Assembly: GCA_963774955.1 (NCBI GenBank)
Contig: CAVZGV010000006.1
Span: forward strand, 8,354 to 72,353
Direction of reading: 5' to 3'
Source: Candidatus Falkowbacteria bacterium
GTDB taxonomy: Bacteria > Patescibacteriota > Patescibacteriia > CAIXNZ01
DNA: 64,000 nt
Each line of letters begins with the position of its first letter. The first letter of the stretch is position 1. Below are positions 34,700-58,157 of the stretch, piece after piece. Under the pieces are notes generated by a model. The model was not told where the DNA came from and made no database searches. It saw only the letters and a program-made list of their open reading frames with translations. The position numbers were made by a program, and so were the translations under genes.

Positions 34700-35959
<1,260 letters not shown>

Positions 35960-39106: not shown

Positions 39107-39117
39107 AACAATAATTC

Positions 39118-39882: not shown

Positions 39883-39910
39883 AAATTAAGATAAAACTTA
39901 TATCCATTAT

Positions 39911-40690: not shown

Positions 40691-40710
40691 AATTTATAAC
40701 TTTATACTTA

Positions 40711-42174: not shown

Positions 42175-42200
42175 ATATAATTTTAGACAATTTTAACCCA

Positions 42201-43325: not shown

Positions 43326-43330
43326 ATTTA

Positions 43331-44452: not shown

Positions 44453-44461
44453 ATAAAATCA

Positions 44462-45196
44462 TTATTTAATAGTCCACATATCTGAATCCTCATTGTAATC
44501 AGCAAAGCCATTCATGGTCGTATCCATTGGATTCTTAAAATCAATATGAAATTCCGTTATTTCTGTTTTAATTATTCGTTCAGGAAATTTTTTACTTGCC
44601 TGTTTCACGCTGAAAGCGTAATTAAATTCCGGGCTTCCCACCACGGAAAAATTCAGGTTCATTATTCTGCCGTTTTCATCAACCTGTATCTTTTCAAGCA
44701 TAAAATTATACAGGGGCAAATCTACAACCTCTGCTATAAATTCATGAATTTCATCAATGGAAAATTTATGTTTGGAAATTATTTCATTATTTTCATTTAT
44801 TACCTTTTCCACCGCGCGTTTTCCTTCAATAAGTTCTTTCTGTTTTTCAAGTTCGGCGCGCATTTTTTCTCTGACTTTGGGGATTACACCGGTATTTGTC
44901 TCGTTTTTTTCTATAGCTTCCTCAATTTTTTGCAGCTGCCGCCTGATTATTTCCGGCGATACCGGAGATCCCTCACTCTTAATAATTTTTAAAAACCTTA
45001 AAAGCTTGTTATAAGCATTCAGTGCCTTGGAAAGTTCTTTGTTTTTTTCATATTCTTTAGCTTCGTCAATAATCGCCATGATCTGTTCTTTCTGTTCAGG
45101 CGTCAAATCTAAGTCCTTCACCCGGCCCAAAGACTGCCTGGCCATGTTCAGGGACTGAGTATCGTTCCCTTTTAGTTGTTCACTTAATTTTGACAT
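44462..45196 (-). CDS. Paralog P7 (N-module + short beta-module)
   Basis: …TQSLNMARQSLGRVKDLDLTPEQKEQIMAIIDEA… and a C-terminal …GRIMNLNFSVVGSPEFNYAF…. Confidence 0.65.
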   Translation of the reverse strand: MSKLSEQLKGNDTQSLNMARQSLGRVKDLDLTPEQKEQIMAIIDEAKEYEKNKELSKALNAYNKLLRFLKIIKSEGSPVSPEIIRRQLQKIEEAIEKNETNTGVIPKVREKMRAELEKQKELIEGKRAVEKVINENNEIISKHKFSIDEIHEFIAEVVDLPLYNFMLEKIQVDENGRIMNLNFSVVGSPEFNYAFSVKQASKKFPERIIKTEITEFHIDFKNPMDTTMNGFADYNEDSDMWTIK

Positions 45197-45201
45197 ATAT
45201 T

Positions 45202-46365
45202 TTAACTTTTTTCTTTATTGATTACTTTACATCCTTTGGGCAATTTAAGGGCTGCCCTTTTTATCTGTAACCAGCTTAAATTATTGCCAAAACAGACCAA
45301 GCGCTGCAATTTTTTATTTGCGCTTAAATCAGGCAGTTCATCTAATAAATTTTTTGACAAATCAAGTTCCTGCAAATTTACCAGCTGGCTTAAATCGGGT
45401 TTTTCTGTCATAGTATTTTTACTCCATAATAATATCTCGAGTTTTTTCAGATGACTAAAATCCGGAAGCTTAACTAAATGGCAGCCCCGGCAGGAAAGGA
45501 ACTTCAAATTATCCAAACCGGTAAAATCCGGAGAGAAAAGCTTAAGCTCATCGCAGGTCAATTCCTCTAGCTTTGACAAGGTCCTTAAATCAGGGAATTT
45601 GTTGGCTACGCATTCGCTAATATCCAATTTTCTAAGACTTGTTAATTTGGTCAGATCAGGAACTTCAGTATCTCTGCAGGAAAATTGTTCCAGATCCCGC
45701 AAGGCACTGATATCAGGGGTGTCCTTAAATCTGGTGCCATCTAAATTCAAATTTTTTAATTTTTTTAAATTACTAAAATTAATGGGTTCATAGTCCCAAA
45801 AATTATGTGACAGATCCAACTCCTGCAGCTCCTTCAACTCGCTTAAATCGGGAAACTTTAAAAAAAGGTTACGGGTCGAACCGTCTGTAAAAAAATTCAC
45901 CCATTTTATATTTTCCCCGTCATTTTCCGGATTATACAAAGATAATTTAAACTTCACAATATTGCCATTTTGAACTTTAATGTTGTTCTTGATCAAGCCC
46001 CTTATTTCCTCTACATCTTTTTTGTCACCGACAGCTTCAAACAAATCCTCCAAATATCTTTCATACGCTAATAATACTTCCGCCTGTTTGCTTTTTATTT
46101 CAAAACCTTCATAGTTTATAATATCTTTACCTTCCTTAAGCTCTCCTTCTTTTTGCTTTAAAAATTTCATGAGTTTATGATAGACATTCAAAGCCTTGGC
46201 TAAATCCTTATTATCCTCATGCGCTTTAGCCTCCTCAATGAAATTCATTACTTCCGTTTTCTGCTCCGGCGTCAGATCCATTTCCTTAACCCGACCCAAA
46301 GTCTGCCTGGCCATGGCCAGGGCTTGTATTTCCGTGCCTTTAATAGTTTCAGAGTTATTTTTCAT
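45202..46365 (-). CDS. Paralog P8: N-module + leucine-rich repeats
   Basis: …IQALAMARQTLGRVKEMDLTPEQKTEVMNFIEEA… followed by …LSELKELQELDLSHN… LRRs. Confidence 0.7.
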   Translation of the reverse strand: MKNNSETIKGTEIQALAMARQTLGRVKEMDLTPEQKTEVMNFIEEAKAHEDNKDLAKALNVYHKLMKFLKQKEGELKEGKDIINYEGFEIKSKQAEVLLAYERYLEDLFEAVGDKKDVEEIRGLIKNNIKVQNGNIVKFKLSLYNPENDGENIKWVNFFTDGSTRNLFLKFPDLSELKELQELDLSHNFWDYEPINFSNLKKLKNLNLDGTRFKDTPDISALRDLEQFSCRDTEVPDLTKLTSLRKLDISECVANKFPDLRTLSKLEELTCDELKLFSPDFTGLDNLKFLSCRGCHLVKLPDFSHLKKLEILLWSKNTMTEKPDLSQLVNLQELDLSKNLLDELPDLSANKKLQRLVCFGNNLSWLQIKRAALKLPKGCKVINKEKS

Positions 46366-46380
46366 TAAATAAAATATAAT

Positions 46381-47136
46381 TTATTTAAAATCCAGTTCTA
46401 AAGGGACAGCTTGACCAAAATCTATCTTAGAACCAAACCATTGTTTATTGCTCGCATTCCATTTCGCGACTGACCGTTTAATATTTGATTCTCTAAATTT
46501 ATCATCTAACTGTGATCTAAATATATTGTATGCAGATTCACCGAATCTGAAGGGATGATAATAAACGACAAAAACTACGGAGGGATCAGCCGCAATACCG
46601 ATATACAGCTGTACAATCTCATTTTTTTGATTAACCATGCCGTTATAGACAAAAAGATTTTCCGGACGAATATTTTCAGCAGCGCAAACTATTTTCATAA
46701 ATTGATCGGCTGTAAAAAACTTACTACCGATTAAATAGTCTTCATTCTTATCCACTGCATACTTTTCATCTTCTGTCCGTTCCAAAGCGACTAGCTGTTT
46801 TTCCAGGGCTTCTATATATGCTTTTTTATTTCCTATTCTAGATGTAGATATTTCATTAATTTTATTTTTTACCATTTCTGTTTGCCTTTCCTTCAATTTA
46901 TCCTTATCCGCAAAAACATTAACACTCTTAAGATACTCAGAAAGATTAAGGTAAATGTTCAAAGCTTTTGACTTATTCCCTACAGTTTCTGCGTCCTTTG
47001 CCTCGTCAATCATAGCCATAACTTTTTTGTGCTGTTCCGGCGTCAGATCCATTTCCTTAACCCGACCCAAAGCCTGCCTGGCCATTTTTAGTGACTGGGC
47101 TTCTGAAATTTCAGATTTTTCAATTCCTTTGTTCAT
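46381..47136 (-). CDS. Paralog P9 (N-module + short beta-module)
   Basis: …AQSLKMARQALGRVKEMDLTPEQHKKVMAMIDEA…. Confidence 0.65.
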   Translation of the reverse strand: MNKGIEKSEISEAQSLKMARQALGRVKEMDLTPEQHKKVMAMIDEAKDAETVGNKSKALNIYLNLSEYLKSVNVFADKDKLKERQTEMVKNKINEISTSRIGNKKAYIEALEKQLVALERTEDEKYAVDKNEDYLIGSKFFTADQFMKIVCAAENIRPENLFVYNGMVNQKNEIVQLYIGIAADPSVVFVVYYHPFRFGESAYNIFRSQLDDKFRESNIKRSVAKWNASNKQWFGSKIDFGQAVPLELDFK

Positions 47137-47160
47137 AAAAATAATTTCGATACAAACGTG

Positions 47161-48765
47161 CTATTTTTCAACTTGGATCACTTCTCTTACATAGCTATTA
47201 TCCCGCTTGGCAATGAGATAGACGCGCTTATCATCACCGGCTACGGCGTTGAAATGATAGATTGTTTCATATTTCTGGCTGATTCTTTGGCCTTGGACAT
47301 TAACCATAAAAAACTGGCCGTCATTTTCAACCTTAAAAAACATTCGTCCGTTTATCTTTTCGGGGATATATACCTTATCATATTGAGCCCCAATTCTTTG
47401 GCCTTGATCATTAATTAACATTGATTTGCCCTCTGACCTGGCAATAAAAAAAAGTTTATTGCCAATATCTGTCAGTGAACTAACATCATCATATAGCGCA
47501 CCGACTCTTTGGCCTTGGTCATTGACTACAAACCACTTACCATTTATCTTGGCCTTGAAAACTATTTTACCGCTAATATCCTGAGGGTAGCCTGTATCAT
47601 CATACTCCTCACCGACTTTTTGCCCCTGATCATTGATAATAAAACACCTACCCTTATCCTGAACCTTAAAAGCCATTTTACCGCCAATATCCACAGGAGG
47701 GTTTACGTACTCATATTCACCGCCGACTCTTTGGCCTTGATCATTGACTACAAAATTTTTATTACCTGTTTTGGCTGTAAAAGCTATTTTACCGCCAATA
47801 CCCACCAAATAATCTACCTTATCATAAATACCTCCGACTTTTTGTCCTTGGTCATTGACGATAAACCACTTGCCGTCTTTCTTGGCTCTAAACGCAAGTT
47901 TGCCACCGATATCTTGGGGGTCGTCTATGTCTTCATATTCATCGCCCACCCGTTGCTCCTGGTCATTGATAACAAACCACTTATCATTTTTTTTAGCTTT
48001 AAAGGCCAGCTTGCCGCTGATATTTTTAGGCTCACCTACTTTATCATATCTGGCGCCAAATGTTTGACCTTGTTCATTGATTATAACCTGAGTTTCCTTC
48101 TTTCTAACCTGTTTGCTCGCCCTAAAAAATATTTTTCCCTCAATATATTCCAAACTGTCCACATAATCATATTTATGACCGATCCTTTGTCCTTGGTCAT
48201 TGACTATAAACCATTCACCATCACTTTCAGCGCTGAAAGCAAATTTATCACCATCCTGACAGATATCCTCTATGTCGTCATATTTATCTCCAACCTGTTC
48301 GCCCATATCATTAACGATTAGCCACTTGCCGTCTTTTTTGGCTTTAAAAACTATCTTACCGTTAATATTTTGAATTTTGTTATCGTCTACATCTTCATAA
48401 TCTCCTCCGATTTTTTCTCCTTTTTCATTGACTACAAAAATTTTATCTTCTTCCTTGGCCTTAAAAAATATTTTAGCGTTGATATCCTGAGGATTCCAAA
48501 CAGAATCAAAGGAACTTAAATCCACCCCAAATTCCTTAATCTTTTCATTAATTTTCTGCAAAAATCTTACCAGACGCTGATAGACTTTAAAGGCTTGCAA
48601 CTTTTTCTCTAAAATTTCATATTCACTAGCCTCATTAAGCATAGTCATCATTTTTTCTTTTTCTTCAGACGTTAAAGCCATCTCCCTGGTGCGCCCCAAA
48701 GCAGCCCTGGCCATTTCTAGGGACTGATTTTCAGAATTATTCAATTGTGATATTTCTTTTGACAT
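47161..48765 (-). CDS. Paralog P10: N-module + at least 10 tandem ~46-aa WG-like beta repeats (GKxxFKAKxDGKWFIVNDQGQRVGxxYDDV)
   Basis: The start is placed at MSKEISQLNNSENQSLEMARAALGRTREMALTSEEKEKMM… The ORF-track upstream extension overlaps repeat element 1. Confidence 0.65.
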   Translation of the reverse strand: MSKEISQLNNSENQSLEMARAALGRTREMALTSEEKEKMMTMLNEASEYEILEKKLQAFKVYQRLVRFLQKINEKIKEFGVDLSSFDSVWNPQDINAKIFFKAKEEDKIFVVNEKGEKIGGDYEDVDDNKIQNINGKIVFKAKKDGKWLIVNDMGEQVGDKYDDIEDICQDGDKFAFSAESDGEWFIVNDQGQRIGHKYDYVDSLEYIEGKIFFRASKQVRKKETQVIINEQGQTFGARYDKVGEPKNISGKLAFKAKKNDKWFVINDQEQRVGDEYEDIDDPQDIGGKLAFRAKKDGKWFIVNDQGQKVGGIYDKVDYLVGIGGKIAFTAKTGNKNFVVNDQGQRVGGEYEYVNPPVDIGGKMAFKVQDKGRCFIINDQGQKVGEEYDDTGYPQDISGKIVFKAKINGKWFVVNDQGQRVGALYDDVSSLTDIGNKLFFIARSEGKSMLINDQGQRIGAQYDKVYIPEKINGRMFFKVENDGQFFMVNVQGQRISQKYETIYHFNAVAGDDKRVYLIAKRDNSYVREVIQVEK

Positions 48766-48775
48766 ATTTAATTTT

Positions 48776-48865
48776 GGGCGAAAACGGCTGACGGCAAGGA
48801 CCTCTATATGTAGAGACGCGCTGCAGCACGTCTCTACCGTCCGCAAACAACAGCCGTTTTCGCCC
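48776..48865. repeat. GC-rich nested-palindrome intergenic element, copy 1 (GGGCGAAAACGGCTG…GTAGAGAC-N-GTCTCTAC…CAGCCGTTTTCGCCC)
   Basis: Outer 15-bp IR and inner 8-bp IR. GC content contrasts sharply with the AT-rich flanks. Closely related to copy 4. Confidence 0.8.
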
Positions 48866-48884
48866 TAGCAATTACTCTTCATTT

Positions 48885-50174
48885 TTATTCATTTATTAAC
48901 CTTTCGACATTTTCCACCACCCGGTAATATTTCCCGTTTTCAAAACAAATATACATAATTTTCTTGCCGTCAGGACTCCAGGCAACCGTATCAATCTGGA
49001 CATTTTTACCGACTGCCTCTCGGTCATTTATAAAAATCGTCCAGCTCCAAACCTGGTCCTGCACCACTGCGGCAATATTATTGCCGTCAGGACTGTATAA
49101 TATCCTTTCAATGTCAGTAAATTCATTTTCCCAAATCCGACGCCCATTTTCCACGAGAGTATAAGCTTCATCTCCTTTTTTGATCATCGCCGCAATGGCA
49201 ATTCTTTTACTGTCAGGACTATAAACCGGACCGCACTTGCAATCTTCGTAATAATCTACCCAAATCAGCTTATCATTTTCAGCCACGCTATAGCCTTTTG
49301 CATCGTCCAAATAAACAATAGCCACCTTTTTACTATCGGGACTGAATACCGGATAATTACACTCAAAAAAATGATGATCCCATTTTTTACCGTTCACGAT
49401 AATCCCAAAATCATCCGCATCAATCACGCCGCAGGCAAATTGCTGATTATCAGGGCTTAGGGTCGGCCTTTGATAATAATCCGTATCTGACTCTAAAATT
49501 ATTTCCTGATCTTTAATTATTACATCCTTAACAGTCTTATAAACAGGGGATTCATTTCCGTCTTCGTCTTTTTCCATATGATCAATGGCTTTATTTTCTC
49601 CTTTGGCAATGACAGATTTGGCATTGGGTGAAAAAAAGGCCTCCATTTCATCATAATTTTGCGGCCAAATTTCACTATTAACAGCTAGTCCCGCTTTACC
49701 CTGCACAGTCTGAAATCCCACCAAGATAGACTGGCCGTCAGGGCTTATTCTTCGGCTATCGTAATTAATATGAGGAAAATTTCTATTCCACAATGTCTTT
49801 TCATCCTTAACCAAAATTTCACCCGCAGGTCCCTTTACTTTAAAAAGATAATTTTCACCGTCAAGAGAAAATTCAGGAGATTCAATATTTTCCTGGCCGT
49901 GCATTTCTTTCAATTCATGCCAATCAATAATCAAACGCTTGCCTACTTCCCAGTCCCACCGTTCTTTCCAGCGTTCGGCTAAGGGTATTTTTAAATTAGC
50001 CTTGATGGATTCTAAGAATTCCAAAAGTTCCCTGTAAACTTTCAGGGCTTTGACTTTATTTTTTGCAGTTTCAAATTCTCTGGCTTCATCAATCAGATGC
50101 ATCATCAGTTCTTTTTCCTCAGCAGTCATTTCCAACTGATTTATCTGATGCAGACGCTGCCGCGCCATGGCCAT
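48885..50174 (-). CDS. Paralog P11: (5'-eroded) N-module + TolB-like beta-propeller (YSPDGxxIA repeats)
   Basis: MAMARQRLHQINQLEMTAEEKELMMHLIDEA… An upstream in-frame remnant VKEKPQPQSPDEQF has no start codon (1-nt frameshift relative to an ATG). Confidence 0.65.
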   Translation of the reverse strand: MAMARQRLHQINQLEMTAEEKELMMHLIDEAREFETAKNKVKALKVYRELLEFLESIKANLKIPLAERWKERWDWEVGKRLIIDWHELKEMHGQENIESPEFSLDGENYLFKVKGPAGEILVKDEKTLWNRNFPHINYDSRRISPDGQSILVGFQTVQGKAGLAVNSEIWPQNYDEMEAFFSPNAKSVIAKGENKAIDHMEKDEDGNESPVYKTVKDVIIKDQEIILESDTDYYQRPTLSPDNQQFACGVIDADDFGIIVNGKKWDHHFFECNYPVFSPDSKKVAIVYLDDAKGYSVAENDKLIWVDYYEDCKCGPVYSPDSKRIAIAAMIKKGDEAYTLVENGRRIWENEFTDIERILYSPDGNNIAAVVQDQVWSWTIFINDREAVGKNVQIDTVAWSPDGKKIMYICFENGKYYRVVENVERLINE

Positions 50175-50341: not shown

Positions 50342-50791
50342 TTACAATCTTTCCACCGGTCCCACCAGGCTGAAGAAATTATTATAATTCAGCTTTTCCA
50401 ATTCCTTATCCGTAGAAACTATGATAATATTGCTTTCCTCCGGAATATCTAAAGTCACCCAGTCTTCCAATTTAGAAAATTGCATTCTTTTATCATGAGA
50501 AATCAGATACAATTGGTTATAAATCTTGGGATCAAGATATTCATGGAGCCTGATTATTGCCCATCTTTTATTTTTCATGGCTTCATACAGCCAGTCAATC
50601 TGAGTCTCCGCATCTTTATTCGGAGTTAATTCAAATGAGGTGACCATATTTAAATCAGGGGCCAGATTAGAAATGTCTGCTAAAGTCTCTTTTTTAACGA
50701 CTAAAAGGCCAATTTCCTTGGTCGCAGCCGGCTGTAACCTGCTGACTACTTCATAAAATTTTTTAATTTTTTCAATGTTTTTTGGAGTCAT
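50342..50791 (-). CDS. Hypothetical 149-aa protein upstream-adjacent to VWA/MoxR pair
   Basis: ORF in the same orientation. No family assigned. Confidence 0.45.
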   Translation of the reverse strand: MTPKNIEKIKKFYEVVSRLQPAATKEIGLLVVKKETLADISNLAPDLNMVTSFELTPNKDAETQIDWLYEAMKNKRWAIIRLHEYLDPKIYNQLYLISHDKRMQFSKLEDWVTLDIPEESNIIIVSTDKELEKLNYNNFFSLVGPVERL

Positions 50792-50895
50792 AATGTTTCA
50801 TGATGTTATATTAGGTTTTATAAGGTTATATAAAGTTTATAAGTTGCTTTGTTGGAATTTGTAATAATCTGTATTTGATTTGTAGATTTGTATCA

Positions 50896-52914
50896 TCATT
50901 TTTTCTGAATTAAACCTTTAACCGTATCGCCAATTTGCTGAGCATAATCATCAATATTAATCGAAGGCAGGTTTTTTACCCGCGGCAAAGAATCATCATA
51001 AAACTCTTGGACATGGTCAGTACCCGGACCGATGCCTGTACCCAGCACATACTGTTCACCTTGTCTGGAAATATCTTTAATCACTTCTTTTAACTGTTCG
51101 TTCTTATCTAAATCCGCATATCTTTGAACATCAGTATCAGGTGCCGGAGCCGGCTGTCCGTCAGAAGTCACAATTAAAAACTGACTATCACCGCCTGCAG
51201 CCGCTAAAATCTGACTGGCTTCATCCACGCAATAAGCATCGCTGTTATGACCATTTTCATTATTGGCGCCGGGCCTGCTATTTTTGCCCGCAGCCTCATC
51301 TTTCATGCCGCTCATTCTTTCTCTGACAGCGTCATCCATTTTATCATCAAAATCTTTAAACTTTATCAGCTTATCCTGAAAACCGTAAATGGCCACTTTT
51401 AAATTAGGCAAAGTATTCCCGACCCGTTCCAGAGCCTCGGACAGTAAAACCGCGCTTTTGAAAGCCTCGGCGATTTTTTCACCATCCATGGACCCTGAAA
51501 GATCGATTAACAGTAAAAAAGTAAAAGACTCTCTTTCCAAGGTTTTTCTGGTTTCAAATAATTCCCTATATTCCTTGGTCGCGGCCCATTTCATAGCGCC
51601 TTTGAGGCGCAGACGCTGGCCCGGAAATCTGGTTTTAAATTTGGGAAATCGCTCCAAAATAAAAGCATTAATCAGATCATCAGCCACATCATCAATATAT
51701 TTGGCGACTGATTCATAAGCTTTGTCATATTCACTTTTTTGGGCTTCTAGTTTTTTCTCCAGATCTCTTAAAGTTTTTCTATTTTCCCTTTCTTTGGCCT
51801 TGTCTTCCTTTTTCTTTTCTTCATCCTCTTTCTCTTCCTTGGCTGATTTTTTTTGTTTCACAAAATGACCTTTCAGTTCCTTATTTAAATCATCTTCCAA
51901 CCCGTCCAGACTATCTTCAGCTGCTTTGGCAGCTTTTTCCTCCCATTTTTTCCTGTCTTCTTCTGACAGGCCATCCAGCCATTCCTTTAATTTCTTTTTC
52001 AACTGTTCGCGTAAATCTTCCGGTATTTGATCCAGTGGTAAAGGCTCACCGTTGGCACCTTGACCTTCTTCAGGTAAGTCAAAATTACTGTTTTCAATCA
52101 TGTCCTTGATCTTCTGCCGCATTTCCTCATCTTCAAAAGACTTGTCAATCAGCTGTTCATAAACCGGCCAGATAGTATTGTAAACAAGATTGTAAACTCT
52201 TTTGGCTTGTTCAACTATATCATCCTCCTTGGGATCTTTAATATCCGGCAAAGTCTCATAAGCCAGTTCCGCATACTGATTGGTTTCATCCAGGGCTTCC
52301 TGGACATCTTCAGGTAAATTTTCAGAAAATTTTTGATAAAACCAGTAACGGATAATTTCCAAACCATATTTAATATGTTTAGGCGTATAACCCAGCTTGT
52401 CTTTGGCTTTCATATCCAGATGGTCAACCGGCAAATCCTCCAGATAAACCTGATTCAACCATTCGCGGGCACCCTTGTATTTTTGCATGGCGAAATTATT
52501 AACCCGAGGATCTTCAACCGCATTCATCAGGAAAGAAAAGCCTGTAGTTTGCCAGACATTTTTGGGAATAAAATCCACCCGCGAAATATTACGGTGAGCA
52601 CCTTCATGGGCCAGTACACCCCAGCAATATTCCTTACTTTTTTCTACGATATCAACGGGATCAACCTCAATTTTATTATAAGGTTTGAAAATATAACGCC
52701 AGCCGCGTTCTTTGCCGACTTCAACTTTAACCCCAAAATCCTCGCCAATGACTTTACCCAAGGTAATTAACTCTTCCATTCTTTGTTTGACTTCGGCTGT
52801 CATTTCCGGCTTAGCTTCTGGCGGGACCGTCTGGCTAGATTGATTGGGATTTTCACTCTCTAAATGAAAAGATTGTTCCTTCATATATTTATCTTTATTT
52901 TTTCTTGGGTTCAC
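50896..52914 (-). CDS. DUF2201-like protein: N-terminal putative metallopeptidase-like region (HEGAH = HExxH) + C-terminal VWA domain with MIDAS (DLSGSMDG)
   Basis: 672 aa. Contains …CWGVLAHEGAHRN… and …FLLLIDLSGSMDGEKI…TSDGQP. Overlaps the start of the MoxR gene by 20 nt. Confidence 0.7.
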   Translation of the reverse strand: MNPRKNKDKYMKEQSFHLESENPNQSSQTVPPEAKPEMTAEVKQRMEELITLGKVIGEDFGVKVEVGKERGWRYIFKPYNKIEVDPVDIVEKSKEYCWGVLAHEGAHRNISRVDFIPKNVWQTTGFSFLMNAVEDPRVNNFAMQKYKGAREWLNQVYLEDLPVDHLDMKAKDKLGYTPKHIKYGLEIIRYWFYQKFSENLPEDVQEALDETNQYAELAYETLPDIKDPKEDDIVEQAKRVYNLVYNTIWPVYEQLIDKSFEDEEMRQKIKDMIENSNFDLPEEGQGANGEPLPLDQIPEDLREQLKKKLKEWLDGLSEEDRKKWEEKAAKAAEDSLDGLEDDLNKELKGHFVKQKKSAKEEKEDEEKKKEDKAKERENRKTLRDLEKKLEAQKSEYDKAYESVAKYIDDVADDLINAFILERFPKFKTRFPGQRLRLKGAMKWAATKEYRELFETRKTLERESFTFLLLIDLSGSMDGEKIAEAFKSAVLLSEALERVGNTLPNLKVAIYGFQDKLIKFKDFDDKMDDAVRERMSGMKDEAAGKNSRPGANNENGHNSDAYCVDEASQILAAAGGDSQFLIVTSDGQPAPAPDTDVQRYADLDKNEQLKEVIKDISRQGEQYVLGTGIGPGTDHVQEFYDDSLPRVKNLPSINIDDYAQQIGDTVKGLIQKK

Positions 52915-54349
52915 CCTTACCCATTATTTTACTTTTGGCTTCTGGCGGCAGACCCATGCCCAGCAGATCACCTTTTATGGCGCGAAGCTGTTTTTCCATT
53001 TCCAATAATTCCTGAGCTTCAGCCTTGATCTCAGGTTCCTGAACTTTTATCAGTTCCTCGGCCACTAATTTTAAATCGTCCCGATCTTTCTTATCCTTGC
53101 ATTTATTCATAAATAAATGTTCAATGGCCTCGGTAATCACCTCTTTCATCCGGCCGACCTCATGAAATTTTCTGAGATAATCTTCAAACCTGACCGCGTC
53201 TCTTTGATCAAAAACGAATTTCTGTTCCTGTTTTTGACAAATTGATTTTTTTTCTAGCATTTCAATCCCCTTATAAACAAATTCACTAAATTTATCAGCC
53301 AGGTCAGCCAGCCATTCCTCTTGATAATATGCAGTCATCTTTTTATCTTCAAGTATCGGAGAAAGTGAAAGATAGCGCAAATTTTTCAGTTCCGGTTCTT
53401 GGGGCGTACAGCCGAAACTTAAAGCCACGCGCGATTTAAAAACATTTTTGGGCAATTTGCCAAGATTCTGATAATTCCAACGGGAAATCCATTCAGCTGA
53501 CAAGGGCACACGGCCTTTGAAATCGCCTCCGGGCGGATTAACCGTGGCAAAGAGCCGAAAATCTTTATGGCGAGGAATTACTTTTGAACCGTCTTCATGC
53601 AAAACCAGCTGGCCGCCTTTTTCCAAAACAGCATTTAAACGCACCAGAATCTGAGGTTCGCAGGTATTGACTTCATCCAATACAGACCAGGCTCCCTCCA
53701 GCATCTGTTTAGGTATATCGCCGTTTTGCCAGGCCCATTCGCTTTCCGAGACTTCAATGCCTTCCAACTCGGCAATCTGCTGCATTTCCTTCTTGGTTAA
53801 CCCGATTTTCTGTTTGGCAATGACTTTGGAGTCACTAGGATCGCTTTCTTTTAATTTACTGACATCAATATTCTCTATTTTTGTTTTAGCTTCGATCAAC
53901 TTTCTGGCTTCCTCACTGGTGCACTTTTCCGGATGTTTTAATAAAACGTTAATTTTGTCTTTCAAACCTTCTACCCTGGGAACCCATTTGCCGATCAGGT
54001 CGGTCACATCAGTCTGGCCATTTAAGGACATTCTGTAAACGGGTTTATTTAAAAGCATAGCCAGATATTCCACGGTAATGGTTTTACCAATAGCCTGTTC
54101 ACCCTCAATCATCAGCGGTGAATCCATTTCCACTGCTTTGGCAATATCCTGCAGTAATTTAAGAGAATAATCGTCCAAAGAAAAATCCTCAAAGCGTTCA
54201 GGCTTTGGCACTTTATCGGACGTTTCTCTGTTTTTGAACATCTCAATGCCCAGGATTTTGACCCGATTTTCAAACTCCTGGACCGGTTCTTTTGATTCCT
54301 CCTCAGGCGCTGCCCCCATGCCCGGGATATTCATGTCTGGTGATCTCAT
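52895..54349 (-). CDS. MoxR-like AAA+ ATPase (AAA_5/dynein-related clade) with N-terminal extension and insertion after Walker A
   Basis: Walker A is GEQAIGKT. Walker B is VLDEVN. Sensor region is ATVNPPGG. 484 aa. Confidence 0.75.
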   Translation of the reverse strand: MRSPDMNIPGMGAAPEEESKEPVQEFENRVKILGIEMFKNRETSDKVPKPERFEDFSLDDYSLKLLQDIAKAVEMDSPLMIEGEQAIGKTITVEYLAMLLNKPVYRMSLNGQTDVTDLIGKWVPRVEGLKDKINVLLKHPEKCTSEEARKLIEAKTKIENIDVSKLKESDPSDSKVIAKQKIGLTKKEMQQIAELEGIEVSESEWAWQNGDIPKQMLEGAWSVLDEVNTCEPQILVRLNAVLEKGGQLVLHEDGSKVIPRHKDFRLFATVNPPGGDFKGRVPLSAEWISRWNYQNLGKLPKNVFKSRVALSFGCTPQEPELKNLRYLSLSPILEDKKMTAYYQEEWLADLADKFSEFVYKGIEMLEKKSICQKQEQKFVFDQRDAVRFEDYLRKFHEVGRMKEVITEAIEHLFMNKCKDKKDRDDLKLVAEELIKVQEPEIKAEAQELLEMEKQLRAIKGDLLGMGLPPEAKSKIMGKGEPKKK

Positions 54350-54418: not shown

Positions 54419-55192
54419 TTACTCGATTGATTCAAGCGGATTAATATATCTTGTCCATCTGCCGGTACCGTCACCATGATCAGCAAATTCTGCAATAACG
54501 GAAATAGTCCTCGGCTTTTTTTCGGTAAATTTCGACCTGTGGATTACTGTATTACTTGACGAACCTACACTGCCATAACGACCTTTCAAAAAATATTCAT
54601 ACTCAACTTCGGGCAAACCAACCTGTATCAGCTGTAAATGCAGTAAATTCCCTTTGGAATCAATAATTTTCTTGGTGGCAAAAAAGTGGGTATCTGTCAG
54701 GCCTTCAATATCTCCGATAATATCCCTGATTTCTTTTTCCGTAAATACTTTTGATGATTCTATTTCCGCTTTATTAGAATCAATAACTTCGGGTTTAAAA
54801 TCTTGCCATTTAGTAATTAATGATTTTTGGTTCAACAACATTTTTGCCCGGGTTTGACGATATGCAGGCCTAAGCCCATAATTTTTTTCATTATCGGCTA
54901 TGTTCATATCTATTAAATCCAATTGATTTTTGATAATCTCAGGGGTAATTTTATAACCGCTGTTATTTTCAAATTGAATAGTTTGCAATAGATTTAATAG
55001 TTGCTGGTAAATTTTAAAGGCATTTACTCCCCTGCCGGCTTGCTCCTCCGCCTTGGCCTCATCAATCATAGTCATGACTTTTTCCTTTTCTTCCGGCGTT
55101 AAATCCATTTCCTTAACCCGACCCAAAGTCTGGCGAGCCATTTCCAGGGCCTTAGATTCTGAACTTTTAGGTTGTAGTATTTCTTTGGGCAT
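54419..55192 (-). CDS. Paralog P12 (N-module + short beta-module)
   Basis: MPKEILQPKSSESKALEMARQTLGRVKEMDLTPEEKEKVMTMIDEA… and a C-terminal …GNLLHLQLIQVGLPEVEYEYFL…. Confidence 0.65.
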   Translation of the reverse strand: MPKEILQPKSSESKALEMARQTLGRVKEMDLTPEEKEKVMTMIDEAKAEEQAGRGVNAFKIYQQLLNLLQTIQFENNSGYKITPEIIKNQLDLIDMNIADNEKNYGLRPAYRQTRAKMLLNQKSLITKWQDFKPEVIDSNKAEIESSKVFTEKEIRDIIGDIEGLTDTHFFATKKIIDSKGNLLHLQLIQVGLPEVEYEYFLKGRYGSVGSSSNTVIHRSKFTEKKPRTISVIAEFADHGDGTGRWTRYINPLESIE

Positions 55193-55213
55193 AAATTAAT
55201 TAACTTGGGAAAA

Positions 55214-55975
55214 TCAGTCTAAAATTTCCCACATATGCAATTTCATATTATATTTAGCCATTTCTCTGATCTGTCTCTTTCGTTTATCTTGAAGATTAAC
55301 TTCATATTTAATAATCACAGTATCAGTAACATCCTTCTTACCCTTAGTATCTTCAAATATTTCTGACAAATGGATCCGAAAACCGATCTCCGGTTTGCCC
55401 GCTACATGTAAATCCAAATATACCAAATGACCATCCTCATCCAAACCTTTATCATCTAAAAAAAGGGCGCCCTCGGGAAATTTTTCTTGATTTTTGATCA
55501 GATCCCAAATATCTTTTTCTTTTAACACCTCCGGAACATAATTATGTTGTTCTGCGGGAATGTATCTTGTTTTCATTTCAGTTGATTTTAAAACCTGCTT
55601 TCTCTGTGCCTGCAATGCATCAACTCTCTGTAAATTTTCCTCTTTAACCCCTGTAGAGGAAATAAGCATATTTGTTAATTTTATTGTTTGAGCGTCTATC
55701 AAACGTAATTGCCTTTTTGTAATTTCCGGGTCATCTATTATTTCACCTTTGTCTTTCGCCTTTAAATGTTCCAGATGTTTTCTTAATTCCAAATATAGAT
55801 TCAAGGCCTTACTTTTATTACCTGCCTTTTCCTCTGCTATAGCCTTATCAATCATAGCCATGACTTTTTCCTTTTCCTCAGGACTTAAATCCATTTCCTT
55901 GACCCGACCCAAAGTCTGGCGTGCCATTTCCATGGTCTTAGTTTTATTTTTCGGTTGTTCTAAACTTTTTTTCAT
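55214..55975 (-). CDS. Paralog P13 (N-module + short beta-module)
   Basis: …TMEMARQTLGRVKEMDLSPEEKEKVMAMIDKA… and a C-terminal …GHLVYLDLHVAGKPEIGFRIHL…. Confidence 0.65.
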   Translation of the reverse strand: MKKSLEQPKNKTKTMEMARQTLGRVKEMDLSPEEKEKVMAMIDKAIAEEKAGNKSKALNLYLELRKHLEHLKAKDKGEIIDDPEITKRQLRLIDAQTIKLTNMLISSTGVKEENLQRVDALQAQRKQVLKSTEMKTRYIPAEQHNYVPEVLKEKDIWDLIKNQEKFPEGALFLDDKGLDEDGHLVYLDLHVAGKPEIGFRIHLSEIFEDTKGKKDVTDTVIIKYEVNLQDKRKRQIREMAKYNMKLHMWEILD

Positions 55976-55993
55976 AGACTTTAGACTTTTTAA

Positions 55994-56773
55994 CTATATT
56001 TCCGGTTCCCAAATATGTTTGTCTTCGTTATAACTTGCACTAACACCGACGGTTCTCCCGCCCCTTAATATATCCTTAAAATTTACGGTTTTACCCAGGA
56101 TTGTCCTTGGTTCTACAGAATTTCTTTTTGTATCGATTCGATATTTTGCTGCCAGAAAATACTCAAGCTCAATTTCTGGTTTGCCAACAACCCCTAAATT
56201 AAGATAAAGCAAATCACCTTCTTCATCCACGATTTTTTTATCCAAATAAAGATCCGCATCAGACAATTTTTCCCTTTTCTTAATTTCTTCCCAGACCTGT
56301 TTTTCAGTAAGTATTTCCAGCGCAGTTATTTCCACCTCGTTATTGGGCCGTATTTCCGTTTTTAATTTTCTCGCTTGAATTATCACATTTTTCTGGAGCT
56401 TCAAAGCGGCAAACATTTTATTCAAATATTCTAAATCCTTCATGCTTATTTTAGCGCTTGATATTTTATCACTAATCTCATTAATCCTCATATCAACCAG
56501 CAATAATTGCGTTCTGATCATCTCAAGATCATCCAACATTTCACCGGATAAAGCTAATTTAATATCGTCCAAATATTTTTTCAATACCTGATAAATATTT
56601 ATGGCCTGGCTCGGGTTCACCTTTTCAGCCGCCTTAGCCTGATCAATCATAGCCAGCACTTTTTCTTTTTGTTCAGCTGTCAAATCTATTTCCTTGACCC
56701 GACCCAAAGTCTGGCGGGCCATTTCCAGGGCCTGCGATTCGGAGTTCTTCGGTTGTGGCTTTTCTTTGGGCAT
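55994..56773 (-). CDS. Paralog P14 (N-module + short beta-module)
   Basis: MPKEKPQPKNSESQALEMARQTLGRVKEIDLTAEQKEKVLAMIDQA… and a C-terminal …GDLLYLNLGVVGKPEIELEYFL…. Confidence 0.65.
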   Translation of the reverse strand: MPKEKPQPKNSESQALEMARQTLGRVKEIDLTAEQKEKVLAMIDQAKAAEKVNPSQAINIYQVLKKYLDDIKLALSGEMLDDLEMIRTQLLLVDMRINEISDKISSAKISMKDLEYLNKMFAALKLQKNVIIQARKLKTEIRPNNEVEITALEILTEKQVWEEIKKREKLSDADLYLDKKIVDEEGDLLYLNLGVVGKPEIELEYFLAAKYRIDTKRNSVEPRTILGKTVNFKDILRGGRTVGVSASYNEDKHIWEPEI

Positions 56774-56784
56774 AATATTCAGTT

Positions 56785-56923
56785 GGGCGAAAACGCCCTT
56801 TGTCTTTTGTCATTTCGAGCCCTTCGGTTTCACTCAGGGCAAGCTCCGCCGAGAAAGTATTCTTCCGCGGAGTTTACACTAAACGAAGTGAAGTGGTCGG
56901 TATGACAAAGAACGTTTTCGCCC
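56785..56923. repeat. GC-rich nested-palindrome element, copy 3 (longest, ~139 bp, several internal hairpins)
   Basis: GGGCGAAAACGCCCTTTGTCTTTTGTCAT…CTCCGCCGAGAAAGTATTCTTCCGCGGAG…ATGACAAAGAACGTTTTCGCCC. Confidence 0.8.
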
Positions 56924-56934
56924 TACAAACTTAA

Positions 56935-57684
56935 TTAAATGTCAATTATATCCCAATCCTTTTTAGACTCATCATATCTGGCAACTTGAACGCCATGCAC
57001 GGTACTCCCGGTTTCAGGATCCAATTCCAATCTGGCTAACCCTGTTTCCATTGAGGAACCAATATCCTTAAAACTGCCTGCCAAGATATAATTGTATTCC
57101 GTATCAGGTCGGCCGGCTATGCCAACGTTCAATGATAATAGCATGCCGTGTTCATCAACAGCTTTATGAATAATATATATTTTATCCCACTCCGGTCCCG
57201 GCAAACTTGCTAAAACACATATAAGCTCCAGAACATTAGCTTCTGTGGGTATGGTCTTAGCTTCAATTTTTACGTCTTTCTTCGGGACTATCTCTGTTTT
57301 ATCTTCAAGAGGCTGACGAATAATTTTTTTTTGGGACACCAAAACAGTAAATCGTGACTTTTTTGAATTTTCATCAATTTCCTCATTTGTCATTAAGTCA
57401 GCTATCGCCTGATCAACATATTCCAATTGTTTTTTTATTTTATTATGGTCAACATTTTTATCCTGTTCAATCCCCTGCAAAAATTTCTGCAATTGGATAT
57501 AAATTTTTAAGGCTCTGGCTTTATTGCCTGAATTTTCTTCAGCTTTAGCCTGGTCAATCAGGGCCATCATCTTTTCATGTTGCTCCGATGTCAAATCCAT
57601 TTCTTTCACCCGACCCAAAGTCTGCCTGGCCATTTCCAGGGTCTGTGTTTCTGAACTATTTGATTGTGGTTTTTCTTTGGGCAT
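56935..57684 (-). CDS. Paralog P15 (N-module + short beta-module)
   Basis: MPKEKPQSNSSETQTLEMARQTLGRVKEMDLTSEQHEKMMALIDQA… and a C-terminal …GMLLSLNVGIAGRPDTEYNYIL…. Confidence 0.65.
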   Translation of the reverse strand: MPKEKPQSNSSETQTLEMARQTLGRVKEMDLTSEQHEKMMALIDQAKAEENSGNKARALKIYIQLQKFLQGIEQDKNVDHNKIKKQLEYVDQAIADLMTNEEIDENSKKSRFTVLVSQKKIIRQPLEDKTEIVPKKDVKIEAKTIPTEANVLELICVLASLPGPEWDKIYIIHKAVDEHGMLLSLNVGIAGRPDTEYNYILAGSFKDIGSSMETGLARLELDPETGSTVHGVQVARYDESKKDWDIIDI

Positions 57685-57902: not shown

Positions 57903-58157
57903 TTACTCCCCCTCAATCTCTTTTAGTGCCCAACCGTCAATTTTGGCTGACCTTACATCAATTTTTAAATTATCTGCTAAGGTTCCTCGAGCCAGCATTT
58001 GCATATTAAAAGCCAGATTTTCTGAATTTATTTCTTCGCCATGTTCAATAACGCTTCCCAGCTCAACCGTAGCTCTGGTCACTTTAGAAAGCTTATTCTG
58101 CCTGGCATATTCCAGGACCAAATTTAAAATTTTATTGGCTTCGTGCAAATCGTGCAT
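57903..58157 (-). CDS. hypA: HypA-like protein, N-terminal (Ni-binding MHE) domain only; C-terminal Cys4 zinc finger absent
   Basis: MHDLHEANKILNLVLEYARQNKLSKVTRATVELGSV…ARGTLA… has HypA architecture. There are no Cys residues and it ends at 84 aa. Followed by a GGGGAGTAATCCCC-T-run hairpin. Confidence 0.5.
   Translation of the reverse strand: MHDLHEANKILNLVLEYARQNKLSKVTRATVELGSVIEHGEEINSENLAFNMQMLARGTLADNLKIDVRSAKIDGWALKEIEGE

What the first reader, a model, noticed from the sequence alone, without database searches (positions are those of the whole stretch)
50342..54349. MoxR-like AAA+ ATPase plus DUF2201-like (HExxH + VWA/MIDAS) partner embedded in the paralog array
The 484-aa ATPase (GEQAIGKT … VLDEVN … ATVNPP) is of the MoxR/AAA_5 kind.

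The upstream 672-aa gene overlaps it by 20 nt. It has an HEGAH (HExxH) motif in its N-terminal half and a C-terminal VWA domain with a DxSGS MIDAS. This is the architecture known from the CbbQ/CbbO, NorQ/NorD and DUF2201 families, which act as ATP-driven remodelling or insertion machines.

A MoxR-VWA pair embedded in an expanding family is reminiscent of the ternary MoxR-VWA conflict systems described by comparative genomics. Here the third component would be the 15-member N-module family, possibly together with the adjacent 149-aa unknown at 50342..50791.
Basis: partly seen in the sequence, partly recalled or inferred. Interest (0 to 1): 0.7.

Follow-up and report, generated by a model that had tools for sequence, protein, structure and literature searches.

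The report
DGR-less midasin-like ATPase machine with binder array
This is a three-gene ATPase machine of tiny uncultured (CPR) bacteria that in most relatives is hypermutated by a retroelement to create new binding specificities, whereas here the retroelement is absent and 15 hard-wired binder genes sharing a common N-terminal 'handle' surround it instead.

Summary
It comprises a 484-aa AAA_5/MoxR ATPase, a 672-aa partner with invariant HExxH…E and a complete MIDAS VWA domain, a 149-aa gene, and 15 paralogs sharing a ~75-aa N-module.

The family assignment is wrong. The partner is not DUF2201, CobT, NorD or CbbO. Both ATPase and VWA are closest to midasin.

p149 is a Walker-less pseudo-AAA+ protein. 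The VWA/p149/ATPase trio is conserved in 67 Patescibacteria loci.

In 13 of 21 well-flanked loci the trio sits beside a diversity-generating retroelement (DGR), whose variable repeat is typically the 3' end of the ATPase gene. This is the known CPR 'AAA-CLec' target class.

The N-module family is tiny (58 representatives in 1.84 billion). In fetched loci it occurs only beside close relatives of this trio.

In two relatives N-module proteins are themselves DGR targets. In one, the N-module carries the same variable domain that is fused to the ATPase.

The window has no RT, DGR-type Avd or TR/VR. Its N-module genes carry LRR, beta-propeller and other domains.

Best reading: a cytoplasmic midasin-like remodelling (possibly proteolytic) machine whose specificity subunits are germline paralogs rather than DGR-diversified. 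It is a new variant of a known kind, and the mechanism is inferred.

The parts
52895..54349 (-). Midasin-like MoxR/AAA_5 ATPase (484 aa). This is the short form, lacking the C-terminal variable (VR) domain found in most relatives.
   Evidence: Pfam AAA_5 3e-14. Best PDB match is midasin AAA modules at 1.6e-72; CobS 8.5e-9, CbbQ 1.5e-5, NorQ 1.5e-4. Walker A G88/K89, Walker B D225/E226, sensor-1 N271 and R280/R290 are invariant in 20 homologs from both clades. Orthologs carry DGR VRs at their 3' ends.
50896..52914 (-). Partner protein (672 aa; alternative ATG start at 52884). It has an N-terminal putative zincin domain, a long charged coiled-coil linker and a C-terminal MIDAS VWA domain.
   Evidence: 91 homologs, all in Patescibacteria and all annotated hypothetical. 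Invariant residues are listed. AlphaFold model has pLDDT 81.
52045..52737 (-). Putative gluzincin-like domain (about aa 60-290). HEGAH lies at nt 52594-52608 and candidate third ligand E134 lies in 'NAVEDPR'.
   Evidence: H103, E104, H107, A132 and E134 are invariant and D135/P136/R137 are at least 90% conserved. The model shows three strands (63-84), then helix 94-110 carrying HExxH, then helix 126-145 carrying E134. There is no Pfam family. The only PDB hint is a sub-threshold match to the ERAP2 active site, E about 0.75-1.
50899..51537 (-). MIDAS-type VWA domain (about aa 460-672). DLSGS lies at nt 51490-51504.
50342..50791 (-). p149, a degenerate (Walker-less) AAA+ alpha/beta core protein and third core subunit.
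54419..57684 (-). Four N-module paralogs upstream of the trio (54419-55192, 55214-55975, 55994-56773, 56935-57684). All have the class-A C-terminal domain.
   Evidence: phmmer, alignment A3, C-terminal clustering.
38393..50174 (-). Eleven N-module paralogs downstream of the trio. Class A: 38393-39106, 39118-39882, 39911-40690, 44462-45196, 46381-47136. LRR: 40711-42174, 45202-46365. Helical-repeat class: 42201-43325, 43331-44452. Repeat protein: 47161-48765 (ORF extends to 48846). PD40 beta-propeller: 48885-50174.
   Evidence: phmmer. LRR_4 3.7e-26 and 2.5e-16. PD40 4.9e-12. Intergenic gaps are mostly 5-28 nt, all on the same strand. The 42201 and 43331 C-termini are homologous to L067 N-module paralogs, up to 8e-57.

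Best explanation
The three genes encode the core of a Patescibacteria-wide cytoplasmic machine:
- a midasin-like MoxR AAA+ ATPase, expected to form a ring;
- a catalytically dead AAA+-fold subunit (p149);
- a partner whose C-terminal MIDAS/VWA domain is tethered by a long coiled coil to an N-terminal HExxH…E (zincin-like) domain.

In most relatives a DGR rewrites the last ~120 nt of the ATPase gene. It often also rewrites a second small gene. This gives the machine a hypervariable ligand-binding C-terminal domain.

In the window's lineage that binding function has been moved onto separate proteins. Each has a conserved ~75-aa helical N-module that acts as the handle connecting it to the machine (inferred). 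A plausible contact is capture of the module's invariant Glu (E50) by the MIDAS ion, as midasin does with its UBL ligands.

Here the DGR is absent. Diversity is supplied instead by 15 germline paralogs carrying LRR, beta-propeller, helical-repeat and unknown C-terminal domains.

Working model: a binder subunit recognises a target protein, most plausibly of a phage or another invader, though this is not shown. ATP hydrolysis is transmitted through the VWA partner to remodel the bound complex. The zincin domain acts as the effector, cleaving either the target or the binder.

Shown: composition, conservation, DGR linkage, and the sharing of variable domains between the ATPase and the N-module proteins.

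Inferred: physical docking, the MIDAS-Glu contact, peptidase activity, and a defence role.

The confidence of 0.55 is for the adaptor/specificity-subunit model as a whole. The narrower claim, that this is the DGR-less member of the CPR DGR-target ATPase/VWA/pseudo-AAA trio and that the N-module family is functionally tied to it, I put at about 0.85.
For: 1. The trio is conserved. VWA homologs were found in 67 loci and ATPase homologs beside them in about 48. A p149 or its counterpart is present in both clades.

2. DGR linkage. RT and Avd occur in 29 of 67 loci, and in 13 of 21 loci with at least 4 kb of flank on both sides. TR/VR pairs with mismatches almost exclusively at TR adenines were found in 24 loci. 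The VR is the 3' end of the ATPase gene in at least 16 of them. [quoted passage not shown]

3. Rosetta-stone link. L003 ORF 9740-10912 has an N-module (E 2.4e-10). Its residues 76-390 are 47% identical (E 1e-105) to the C-terminal extension of the L003 ATPase. Both end in VRs matched to one TR.

4. In L067 two N-module paralogs carry VRs, with 21 of 22 mismatches at TR adenines. There the N-module genes are interleaved between ATPase, p149 and VWA.

5. The N-module family is very rare: 58 representatives among 1.84e9 proteins, mostly N-terminal. Yet it lies beside the trio in the window and in L001, L002, L003, L067 and L068.

6. The window has no RT, no DGR-type Avd and no adenine-biased repeat. 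Its ATPase is the short form.

7. The C-terminal domains are classic binder scaffolds, LRR and PD40. N-modules average 53% identity while the C-termini are 21-40% identical or unrelated.

8. Both ATPase and VWA are closest to midasin. Catalytic ATPase residues, the MIDAS residues and HExxH…E are invariant.

9. No signal peptide or TM segment was found in any component.
Against: - No direct evidence shows that the N-module binds the ATPase, p149 or VWA. No co-folding could be run.
- Many trios exist with neither a DGR nor N-module genes (L006, L019, L037, L064). The machine therefore does not strictly need separate binders.
- The paralog N-terminal module in L059 and the second DGR targets of the distant clade are not detectably homologous to the N-module.
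- The commonest window C-terminal class (9 genes) has no recognised fold and no similarity to VR domains.
- Nothing shows a defence role. There is no PADLOC hit and no known effector apart from the putative peptidase.
Confidence: 0.55

Rival explanations
1. Clients, not adaptors. The N-module proteins are substrates of a MoxR-VWA chaperone or maturase. The N-module would be a recognition tag or pro-peptide that the MIDAS domain grips and the HExxH domain cleaves off. This would release or assemble the C-terminal LRR, propeller or other domains, for example into a larger structure.
For: Known MoxR-VWA pairs act on client proteins, as reviewed in PMC7159879. The N-module is mostly at the extreme N-terminus, like a leader. 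It has an invariant 'MAR' and an invariant Glu. The genes are co-operonic with the machine.
Against: In relatives the same variable domain is covalently fused to the ATPase itself. That fits a built-in specificity domain better than a client. DGR diversification of a mere client is hard to rationalise. No cleavage-site evidence exists.
Confidence: 0.2
2. A metal-cofactor insertion chaperone of the CobST, NorQD, CbbQO or CoxDE type, serving the neighbouring [NiFe]-hydrogenase. The paralog array would be an unrelated insertion.
For: There is a CobT_C hit and weak CobS and phrog_249 'porphyrin biosynthesis' hits. HypA (57903-58157) and group-3 hydrogenase subunits (60502-61776, 63092-63874) lie just upstream of the array.
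Against: The CobS model scores 40 bits against a cut-off of 558. No CobT N-terminal family hit appeared at the thresholds used. Hydrogenase genes are not next to the trio in L001, L006, L059, L064 or L068, or in any DGR-linked locus inspected. DGR targeting of the ATPase in relatives is incompatible with a fixed housekeeping client.
Confidence: 0.04
3. A bona fide member of the described ternary MoxR-vWA conflict systems (VMAP, iSTAND, FtsH or beta-propeller types of Kaur et al. 2020).
For: The logic is the same: a MoxR-vWA couple plus hypervariable components diversified by a DGR or by module acquisition (PMC7159879, PMC10907252). An inactive NTPase-fold third subunit (p149) recalls iSTAND, and a zinc-peptidase motif recalls the FtsH type.
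Against: No VMAP, STAND or FtsH domains were found. The ATPase N-terminus lacks the Trp-containing motifs (WxhapG, PsWRxa) that the paper describes for the VMAP-type MoxR. Those systems derive from CoxD-CoxE and occur in multicellular bacteria (PMC7159879), whereas this pair is midasin/CobT_C-like and restricted to CPR. CPR DGR RTs form a separate clade (PMC8144416, PMC10907252).
Confidence: 0.05
4. Decaying remnant. The window's trio is a relic of a DGR system that lost its retroelement and variable domain and no longer functions. The paralog array would be an unrelated expanding family that merely tolerates insertion there.
For: The DGR is absent. The ATPase lacks the VR domain. Degenerate or split RTs occur in relatives L066 and L067.
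Against: All catalytic and metal-binding residues are intact. The three genes are full-length and tightly packed with the array. The same DGR-less short-ATPase-plus-array layout recurs in L001 at only 56% VWA identity, which implies long-term purifying selection. N-modules are old duplicates, with DNA identity of at most 74%.
Confidence: 0.05

Closest known systems
[quoted passage not shown] 2017 as cited in PMC10907252; 'UVR4/Midasin' targets in Wu et al. 2018, PMC5758913)
   Same: The window ATPase is an ortholog, with phmmer E-values from 2e-148 (L003) to about 1e-20-1e-47 (distant clade). Those orthologs carry VRs at their 3' ends with adenine-specific TR/VR mismatches, next to Avd and RT.
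   Different: The window gene lacks the C-terminal variable domain and the locus has no DGR. The conserved zincin-VWA partner, the pseudo-AAA p149 and the N-module binder family were not mentioned in the papers I could read. Paul et al. 2017 itself was not available, so priority cannot be fully checked.
Midasin (Rea1/MDN1), a eukaryotic ribosome-assembly AAA+ with a MIDAS domain
   Different: Midasin is one giant polypeptide with six AAA modules. Here there is a single-module ATPase, a separate dead AAA module and a separate MIDAS protein that additionally carries an HExxH domain. It is bacterial, DGR-linked, and has no ribosome-biogenesis context.
Ternary MoxR-vWA conflict systems (Kaur, Burroughs, Iyer & Aravind 2020, PMC7159879) and DGR-diversified 'antigen sensors' (Doré et al. 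2024, PMC10907252)
   Same: A MoxR-vWA couple is combined with hypervariable sensor components diversified by DGRs or by domain shuffling. The proposed logic is the same: sensor, then ATPase transducer, then effector (often a peptidase).
   Different: The third components differ: p149 and N-module proteins instead of VMAP, iSTAND or FtsH. The vWA/MoxR lineage differs (midasin/CobT_C-like rather than CoxDE-like). The hosts are reduced CPR genomes rather than multicellular bacteria. The DGR RT clade differs. The putative effector is built into the vWA protein.
Aerobic cobaltochelatase CobS/CobT and phage CobS/CobT-like pairs (phrog_249, phrog_1576)
   Same: The VWA domain is assigned to Pfam CobT_C. 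CobT is the best sequence match in PDB (E 4e-20). The ATPase matches CobS and phrog_249 over the Walker B-sensor 1 segment.
   Different: It fails the CobS equivalog cut-off by more than 500 bits. No CobT N-terminal family hit appeared at the thresholds used. An HExxH domain is present here. No CobN or cobalamin context was seen in the ORFs examined. Relatives are DGR-targeted.
FtsH-type AAA+ zinc metalloproteases
   Same: An AAA+ ATPase is coupled to an HExxH zinc-peptidase motif. This gives a precedent for ATP-driven substrate delivery to a zincin site.
   Different: Here the HExxH is on a separate VWA protein, not fused to the ATPase. There is no sequence similarity to M41 and no membrane anchor.

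Membership tests
MoxR / AAA_5 (PF07728) AAA+ ATPases | Profile match above the curated cut-off | tested here: met
   PF07728 E 3e-14, 53.7 bits against a cut-off of 22.
MoxR / AAA_5 (PF07728) AAA+ ATPases | Intact Walker A, Walker B, sensor-1 Asn and conserved arginines | tested here: met
   G88, K89, D225, E226, N271, R280 and R290 are invariant in 20 homologs.
DUF2201 (PF13203 metallopeptidase domain + PF09967 VWA-like domain) | Match to PF13203 and/or PF09967 | tested here: not met
   No hit at E<=0.1 for the window protein. No hit at E<=1 in any of 19 family members, while 19 of 19 hit CobT_C instead.
Cobaltochelatase CobS/CobT | CobS equivalog model (TIGR01650) above its cut-off | tested here: not met
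   40.2 bits against a cut-off of 558.55, with only aa 208-274 aligned.
Cobaltochelatase CobS/CobT | CobT architecture: CobT N-terminal domain plus CobT_C VWA | tested here: inconclusive
   CobT_C is met (38 bits against a cut-off of 21), and CobT is the best PDB match (4e-20). No CobT N-terminal family hit appeared at the thresholds used (E<=0.1 for the window protein; top 25 families at E<=1 for 19 members). The PDB CobT N-terminus aligns at only 0.1 bits.
Cobaltochelatase CobS/CobT | CobN partner or cobalamin pathway context | not tested
   No cobalamin gene was seen among the ORFs scanned, but not every ORF in the window was scanned.
NorQ/NorD and CbbQ/CbbO | Close similarity of the ATPase to NorQ or CbbQ | tested here: not met
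   CbbQ 1.5e-5 and NorQ 1.5e-4, both over the P-loop segment only (aa 72-128).
NorQ/NorD and CbbQ/CbbO | Client enzyme (NorB or Rubisco) encoded nearby | tested here: not met
   The neighbours are N-module genes, PGK, HypA, RsmE and hydrogenase. Related loci have unrelated neighbours.
Ternary MoxR-vWA conflict systems (Kaur et al. 2020) | Third component VMAP, iSTAND or FtsH, or a beta-propeller fused to the vWA protein | tested here: not met
   No such domains were found in the trio and PADLOC gave nothing. The propeller here is on an N-module protein, not on the vWA protein.
Ternary MoxR-vWA conflict systems (Kaur et al. 2020) | MoxR N-terminal motifs WxhapG and PsWRxa, which the paper describes for the VMAP-type MoxR (PMC7159879) | tested here: not met
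DGR target proteins (CPR AAA-CLec class) | Homology of the ATPase to VR-bearing ATPases | tested here: met
   phmmer E 2e-148 to the L003 ATPase and 1e-20 to 1e-47 to distant-clade VR-bearing ATPases.
DGR target proteins (CPR AAA-CLec class) | VR in the gene, with a cognate TR, RT and Avd nearby | tested here: not met
   The window has no RT or DGR-type Avd homolog and no adenine-biased repeat. The ATPase ends where the extension begins in L003.
Zincin (gluzincin-like) metallopeptidases | HExxH on a helix plus a downstream third ligand, conserved across the family | tested here: met
   H103, E104, H107 and E134 are invariant in 19 sequences. HExxH lies on helix 94-110 and E134 on helix 126-145, after a three-stranded sheet.
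Zincin (gluzincin-like) metallopeptidases | Fold or profile match to a known peptidase family | tested here: inconclusive
   No Pfam hit. The PDB profile search gave only a sub-threshold ERAP2 active-site alignment, E about 0.75-1. The fold searches were dominated by the VWA domain, and AFDB was unavailable.
MIDAS-type VWA domains | DxSxS plus a downstream Asp, and a VWA fold | tested here: met
AAA+ fold (p149) | AAA+ alpha/beta core fold | tested here: met
AAA+ fold (p149) | Walker A and Walker B nucleotide-binding motifs | tested here: not met
   There is no GxxxxGK[ST]. The P-loop position reads 'VVKKETLAD' and the Walker B position reads 'LHEYLD', conserved as such in 20 homologs.

The most novel reading that the evidence does not exclude
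The trio is a programmable, ATP-driven recognition-and-cleavage machine. A midasin-like AAA ring carries a dead-AAA subunit and a MIDAS-tethered zinc peptidase, and its target specificity is set by exchangeable binder subunits. In most CPR bacteria those binders are rewritten 'somatically' by a DGR. In this lineage they have been replaced by a 'germline' repertoire of 15 N-module receptors (LRR, beta-propeller and others). This would be a bacterial parallel to the adaptive-versus-innate receptor dichotomy, operating at the protein level inside ultra-small symbionts, most likely against phage or host proteins.
Probability: 0.25. Interest if true: 0.85.

Novelty: new variant of a known kind. Interest (0 to 1): 0.62.

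Why it matters
DGR-diversified AAA-ATPase proteins have been noted in the literature I could read since at least 2017 as a major class of hypermutation targets in CPR bacteria. Those papers offer at most speculation about what these proteins do or work with.

This locus and its relatives add four things:
1. **Obligate partners.** They are a MIDAS/VWA protein with a conserved zinc-peptidase motif and a dead AAA+ subunit. This turns an orphan target into a defined three-subunit machine that can be reconstituted.
2. **A fusion/fission link.** The variable binding domain can sit on the ATPase or on a separate protein carrying the N-module.
3. **A natural experiment.** Retroelement-driven diversity has been replaced here by a fixed array of 15 paralogous binders.
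4. **Concrete experiments.** Complex formation, MIDAS-Glu capture, zinc-dependent proteolysis and ligand identification with non-variable LRR/propeller binders are all testable. Fixed binders are much easier to work with than hypervariable ones.

Tried and rejected
1. **DUF2201 assignment.** No PF13203 or PF09967 hit in 19 members at E<=1.
2. **CobS/CobT identity.** It fails the equivalog cut-off and no CobT N-terminal family hit appeared.
3. **Defence-system libraries.** PADLOC gave nothing. PHROGs gave only CobS-like phrog_249 and the unknown phrog_1576.
4. **Hidden DGR in the window.** There is no RT or DGR-type Avd homolog and no adenine-biased repeat. The PF05635 gene at 59998-60381 is Avd-family but not similar to the DGR Avds.
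5. **Wider homology of the N-module.** Comparison with the L059 paralog N-termini and with the distant-clade second DGR targets was not significant by HHalign (E 0.16 and 0.01, probabilities below 5%).
6. **Class-A C-terminal domain versus VR-bearing domains.** Not significant.
7. **L003 ATPase extension versus window ORFs.** No hits.
8. **N-module versus the ATPase C-terminal tail.** They resemble each other by eye, but the match is not significant (E 0.35, 3 bits) and not consistent across homologs. Rejected.
10. **Context of non-window N-module proteins from the global search.** The two tried (P0240, P0246) are not on record.
12. **Paul et al. 2017 (Nat Microbiol).** It could not be read.

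Full report
**1. Observation**

All three ORFs exist as described, on the minus strand.

- The ATPase (52895-54349, 484 aa) hits Pfam AAA_5 at E 3e-14, above the curated cut-off.
- The 672-aa partner (50896-52914) contains HEGAH at nt 52594-52608 and DLSGS at nt 51490-51504. Its VWA domain is assigned to Pfam CobT_C (E 1.8e-9).
- The 149-aa ORF (50342-50791) has no family hit.

Exactly fifteen ORFs share a ~75-aa N-terminal module, four upstream and eleven downstream of the pair (alignment A3).

The 20-nt overlap holds only for a GTG start. The database version of the protein starts at the ATG at 52884, which leaves a 10-nt gap instead.

The flanks are chromosomal housekeeping genes: PGK, iPGM, enolase, HypA, RsmE and a group-3 [NiFe]-hydrogenase. 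GC content is about 39%.

**2. The partner protein**

It has 91 homologs. Those that carry an organism label are labelled Patescibacteria/CPR, and all are annotated 'hypothetical'.

In 19 sequences down to 26% identity, the following residues are invariant:
- H103, E104 and H107;
- A132 and E134 (motif 'NAVEDPR');
- D471, S473 and S475;
- D585 and G586.

The AlphaFold model has mean pLDDT 81. Its layout is:
- a small sheet (strands 63-84);
- a helix carrying HExxH (94-110);
- a helix carrying E134 (126-145);
- a helical bundle;
- two very long charged helices (about aa 230-420);
- a VWA domain.

The strand-helix-helix arrangement is the minimal zincin layout with a Glu third ligand. I could not confirm this fold by search:
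- AFDB was unavailable.
- An N-domain profile against PDB gave only a sub-threshold alignment to the ERAP2 active site.

No family member hits DUF2201 (PF13203 or PF09967) even at E<=1, whereas all 19 hit CobT_C.

**3. The ATPase**

The best solved relative is midasin. Its AAA modules give a summed E of 1.6e-72, far ahead of CobS (8.5e-9), CbbQ (1.5e-5) and NorQ (1.5e-4). The CobS equivalog model scores 40 bits against a cut-off of 558.

Walker A (G88, K89), Walker B (D225, E226), sensor-1 N271 and R280/R290 are invariant in 20 homologs from both clades. This looks like an active enzyme.

**4. p149**

It has 23 homologs of about 150 aa with 74% mean column identity. The model is confident, with pLDDT 90.7.

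It has no P-loop ('VVKKETLAD' at that position) and no Walker B acidic pair ('LHEYLD'). It is therefore a dead AAA+ subunit.

In the distant clade a ~136-aa ORF fills the very regular ~430-nt gap between the VWA and ATPase genes in 39 loci. It matches the p149 profile end to end (HHalign 90.8%, E 1.2e-6). The p149-like gene of L059 matches at E 1e-10.

The trio of VWA, pseudo-AAA and ATPase is therefore the conserved core.

**5. Related loci and the DGR link**

A scan of one genome per species returned 65 loci. Most record titles name Patescibacteria/CPR groups; a minority name other taxa, which I take to be mislabelled bins. Three more loci came from exact-protein look-ups.

There are two clades:
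- A close clade with at least 38% identity and gene order ATPase-VWA-p149, as in the window.
- A CPR-wide clade with about 30% identity, gene order VWA-p149-like-ATPase and a 650-700-aa ATPase.

DGR components are linked to the trio:
- RT and Avd homologs lie beside the trio in 29 of 67 loci.
- They are present in 13 of 21 loci that have at least 4 kb on both sides.
- TR/VR pairs whose mismatches fall almost exclusively on template adenines were found in 24 loci.
- In at least 16 of those the VR is the last ~120 nt of the ATPase gene.

This agrees with the literature:
[quoted passage not shown] 2017).
- The UVR4 targets match 'Midasin' AAA (PMC5758913).
- CPR DGRs form their own RT clade (PMC8144416).

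The window ATPase is thus an ortholog of a known DGR-target class. However, it is the short form, and the window has no RT, no DGR-type Avd and no adenine-biased repeat.

**6. The N-module family**

Within the window:
- N-modules average 53% pairwise identity.
- DNA identity is at most 74%, so these are old duplicates and not products of recent gene conversion.
- The C-termini fall into at least five classes:
  - nine genes share a ~180-aa domain of unknown fold at 21-36% identity;
  - two are LRR proteins (LRR_4 3.7e-26 and 2.5e-16);
  - two are helical-repeat proteins;
  - one is a PD40 beta-propeller;
  - one is another repeat protein.
- The genes are co-directional with the trio, with gaps of mostly 5-28 nt.
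- None has a signal peptide or a TM segment.

Globally the module is very rare. There are 58 cluster representatives among 1.84 billion proteins. The module is at the N-terminus in most of them, and many are the window's own genes.

Among the fetched loci it occurs only beside close-clade trios:
- L001 has seven copies on both sides of the trio, as in the window.
- L002 and L068 each have one copy at the contig edge, right after p149.
- L003 has one copy right after p149.
- L067 has eight or nine copies interleaved between ATPase, p149 and VWA.

Window and L001-L003 modules are clearly homologous (HHalign 98.4%, E 4.6e-15).

Two observations tie the family to the machine's variable function:
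- L003 ORF 9740-10912 has an N-module (E 2.4e-10). This is followed by a ~315-aa domain 47% identical (E 1e-105) to the C-terminal extension of the L003 ATPase. Both end in VRs matched to the same TR.
- In L067 the TR (13085-13204) matches VRs at the 3' ends of two N-module paralogs, with 21 of 22 mismatches at TR adenines. Other L067 N-module paralogs are homologous to the window's 42201/43331 class, up to 8e-57.

L059 (VWA 38% identical) shows the same architecture. A short ATPase, VWA and p149-like gene are embedded in nine paralogs with their own conserved N-terminal module. That module is not detectably homologous to the window's.

Some trios have neither a DGR nor an array: L006, L019, L037 and L064.

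**7. Interpretation**

Shown:
- A conserved three-subunit system.
- Frequent DGR targeting of the ATPase C-terminus.
- The same variable domain fused either to the ATPase or to an N-module.
- N-module genes co-operonic with, and sometimes interleaved in, the trio.
- In the window, a DGR-less version with 15 fixed binder-type paralogs.

Inferred:
- The N-module docks binder subunits onto the machine. The MIDAS domain gripping the module's invariant Glu (E50) is a plausible contact, by analogy with midasin.
- The ATPase, with p149, transmits ATP-driven movement through the coiled-coil partner.
- The HExxH domain is the effector.

A defence or conflict role is plausible by analogy with DGR-linked MoxR-vWA systems (PMC7159879, PMC10907252), but no evidence here shows it.

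**8. Rivals**

- N-module proteins as clients or pro-proteins. This remains possible.
- A metal-insertion chaperone for the adjacent hydrogenase. Rejected, because the neighbourhood is not conserved and the relatives are DGR targets.
- Membership in the published ternary families. The defining components are absent.
- A decaying relic. Contradicted by intact catalytic residues and by recurrence of the same layout in L001 at 56% identity.

**9. Novelty**

The ATPase class and the general theme of a MoxR-vWA couple with DGR-diversified sensors are known.

The following appear undescribed in the papers I could access:
- the conserved zincin-MIDAS partner;
- the pseudo-AAA subunit;
- the N-module adaptor family with its fusion/fission link to the ATPase;
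- the replacement of a DGR by a germline paralog array.

Paul et al. 2017 could not be read.

Verdict: a new variant of a known kind, of moderate to high interest.

Noticed in passing
window 59998-60381 (-): An orphan 127-aa gene of the PF05635 / 23S_rRNA_IVP family (E 9e-18), the four-helix-bundle family that includes DGR Avd. There is no RT or TR nearby. It is not similar to the DGR Avds in related loci, but it is similar (E 1e-10) to L001 17365-17754, which also lies about 1 kb from the L001 N-module array.
   Followed up: partly
window 43331-44452 (-): This N-module paralog contains internal tandem repeats of about 87 nt (about 29 aa). They appear as a ladder of self-matches at roughly 87-nt offsets.
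   Followed up: no
window 34700-35959 (-): Enolase appears split. ORF 35189-35959 covers Enolase_N plus only the first ~106 of 296 positions of Enolase_C. The adjacent ORF 34700-35152 may be the remainder. This could be a frameshift, a pseudogene or an assembly error.
   Followed up: no
window 57903-58157 (-): The HypA-like ORF is only 84 aa and matches profile positions 1-70 of about 115. It may be truncated and lack the C-terminal zinc site. It sits between the array and an acyltransferase, RsmE and [NiFe]-hydrogenase genes.
   Followed up: no
window 52884-52914 (-): The start codon of the VWA partner is ambiguous. GTG at 52914 gives a 20-nt overlap with the ATPase. ATG at 52884, used by the database protein P0001 (662 aa), gives a 10-nt gap. 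The N-terminal ~35 residues are unconserved and have low pLDDT.
   Followed up: partly
L003 5409-7224; L002 1-1931; L066 5643-7439: In three close-clade loci the whole DGR cassette (TR, Avd on the opposite strand, RT) is inserted between the ATPase and VWA genes, which in the window abut or overlap. In L066 the RT is split into two ORFs.
   Followed up: partly
L020 12504-17645: There are two tandem ATPase paralogs (684 and 728 aa). Each has a 3' VR matched to a single TR at 17529-17645.
   Followed up: no
L067 13000-21648; L066 1205-3267 and 9614-10606: The L067 trio and array lie next to conjugation/T4SS genes (TrbC/T4SS pilin, DUF87/TraG-like ATPase) and an rve integrase. The L066 trio is flanked by rve transposases. 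The system may sometimes travel on mobile DNA.
   Followed up: no
L055 1025-4494 and 11077-14141: One contig carries two separate TRs (4378-4494 and about 14018-14141), each with two VRs. This suggests two DGR systems around one trio. One further target is a 946-aa protein.
   Followed up: no
L059 3113-15653: Nine paralogs with a different conserved N-terminal module ('MSEKILEFT…EKGSAEELIALQAYQ') flank a short-ATPase trio. The architecture is analogous to the window's, but homology of the two modules is not detectable (HHalign E 0.16).
   Followed up: partly
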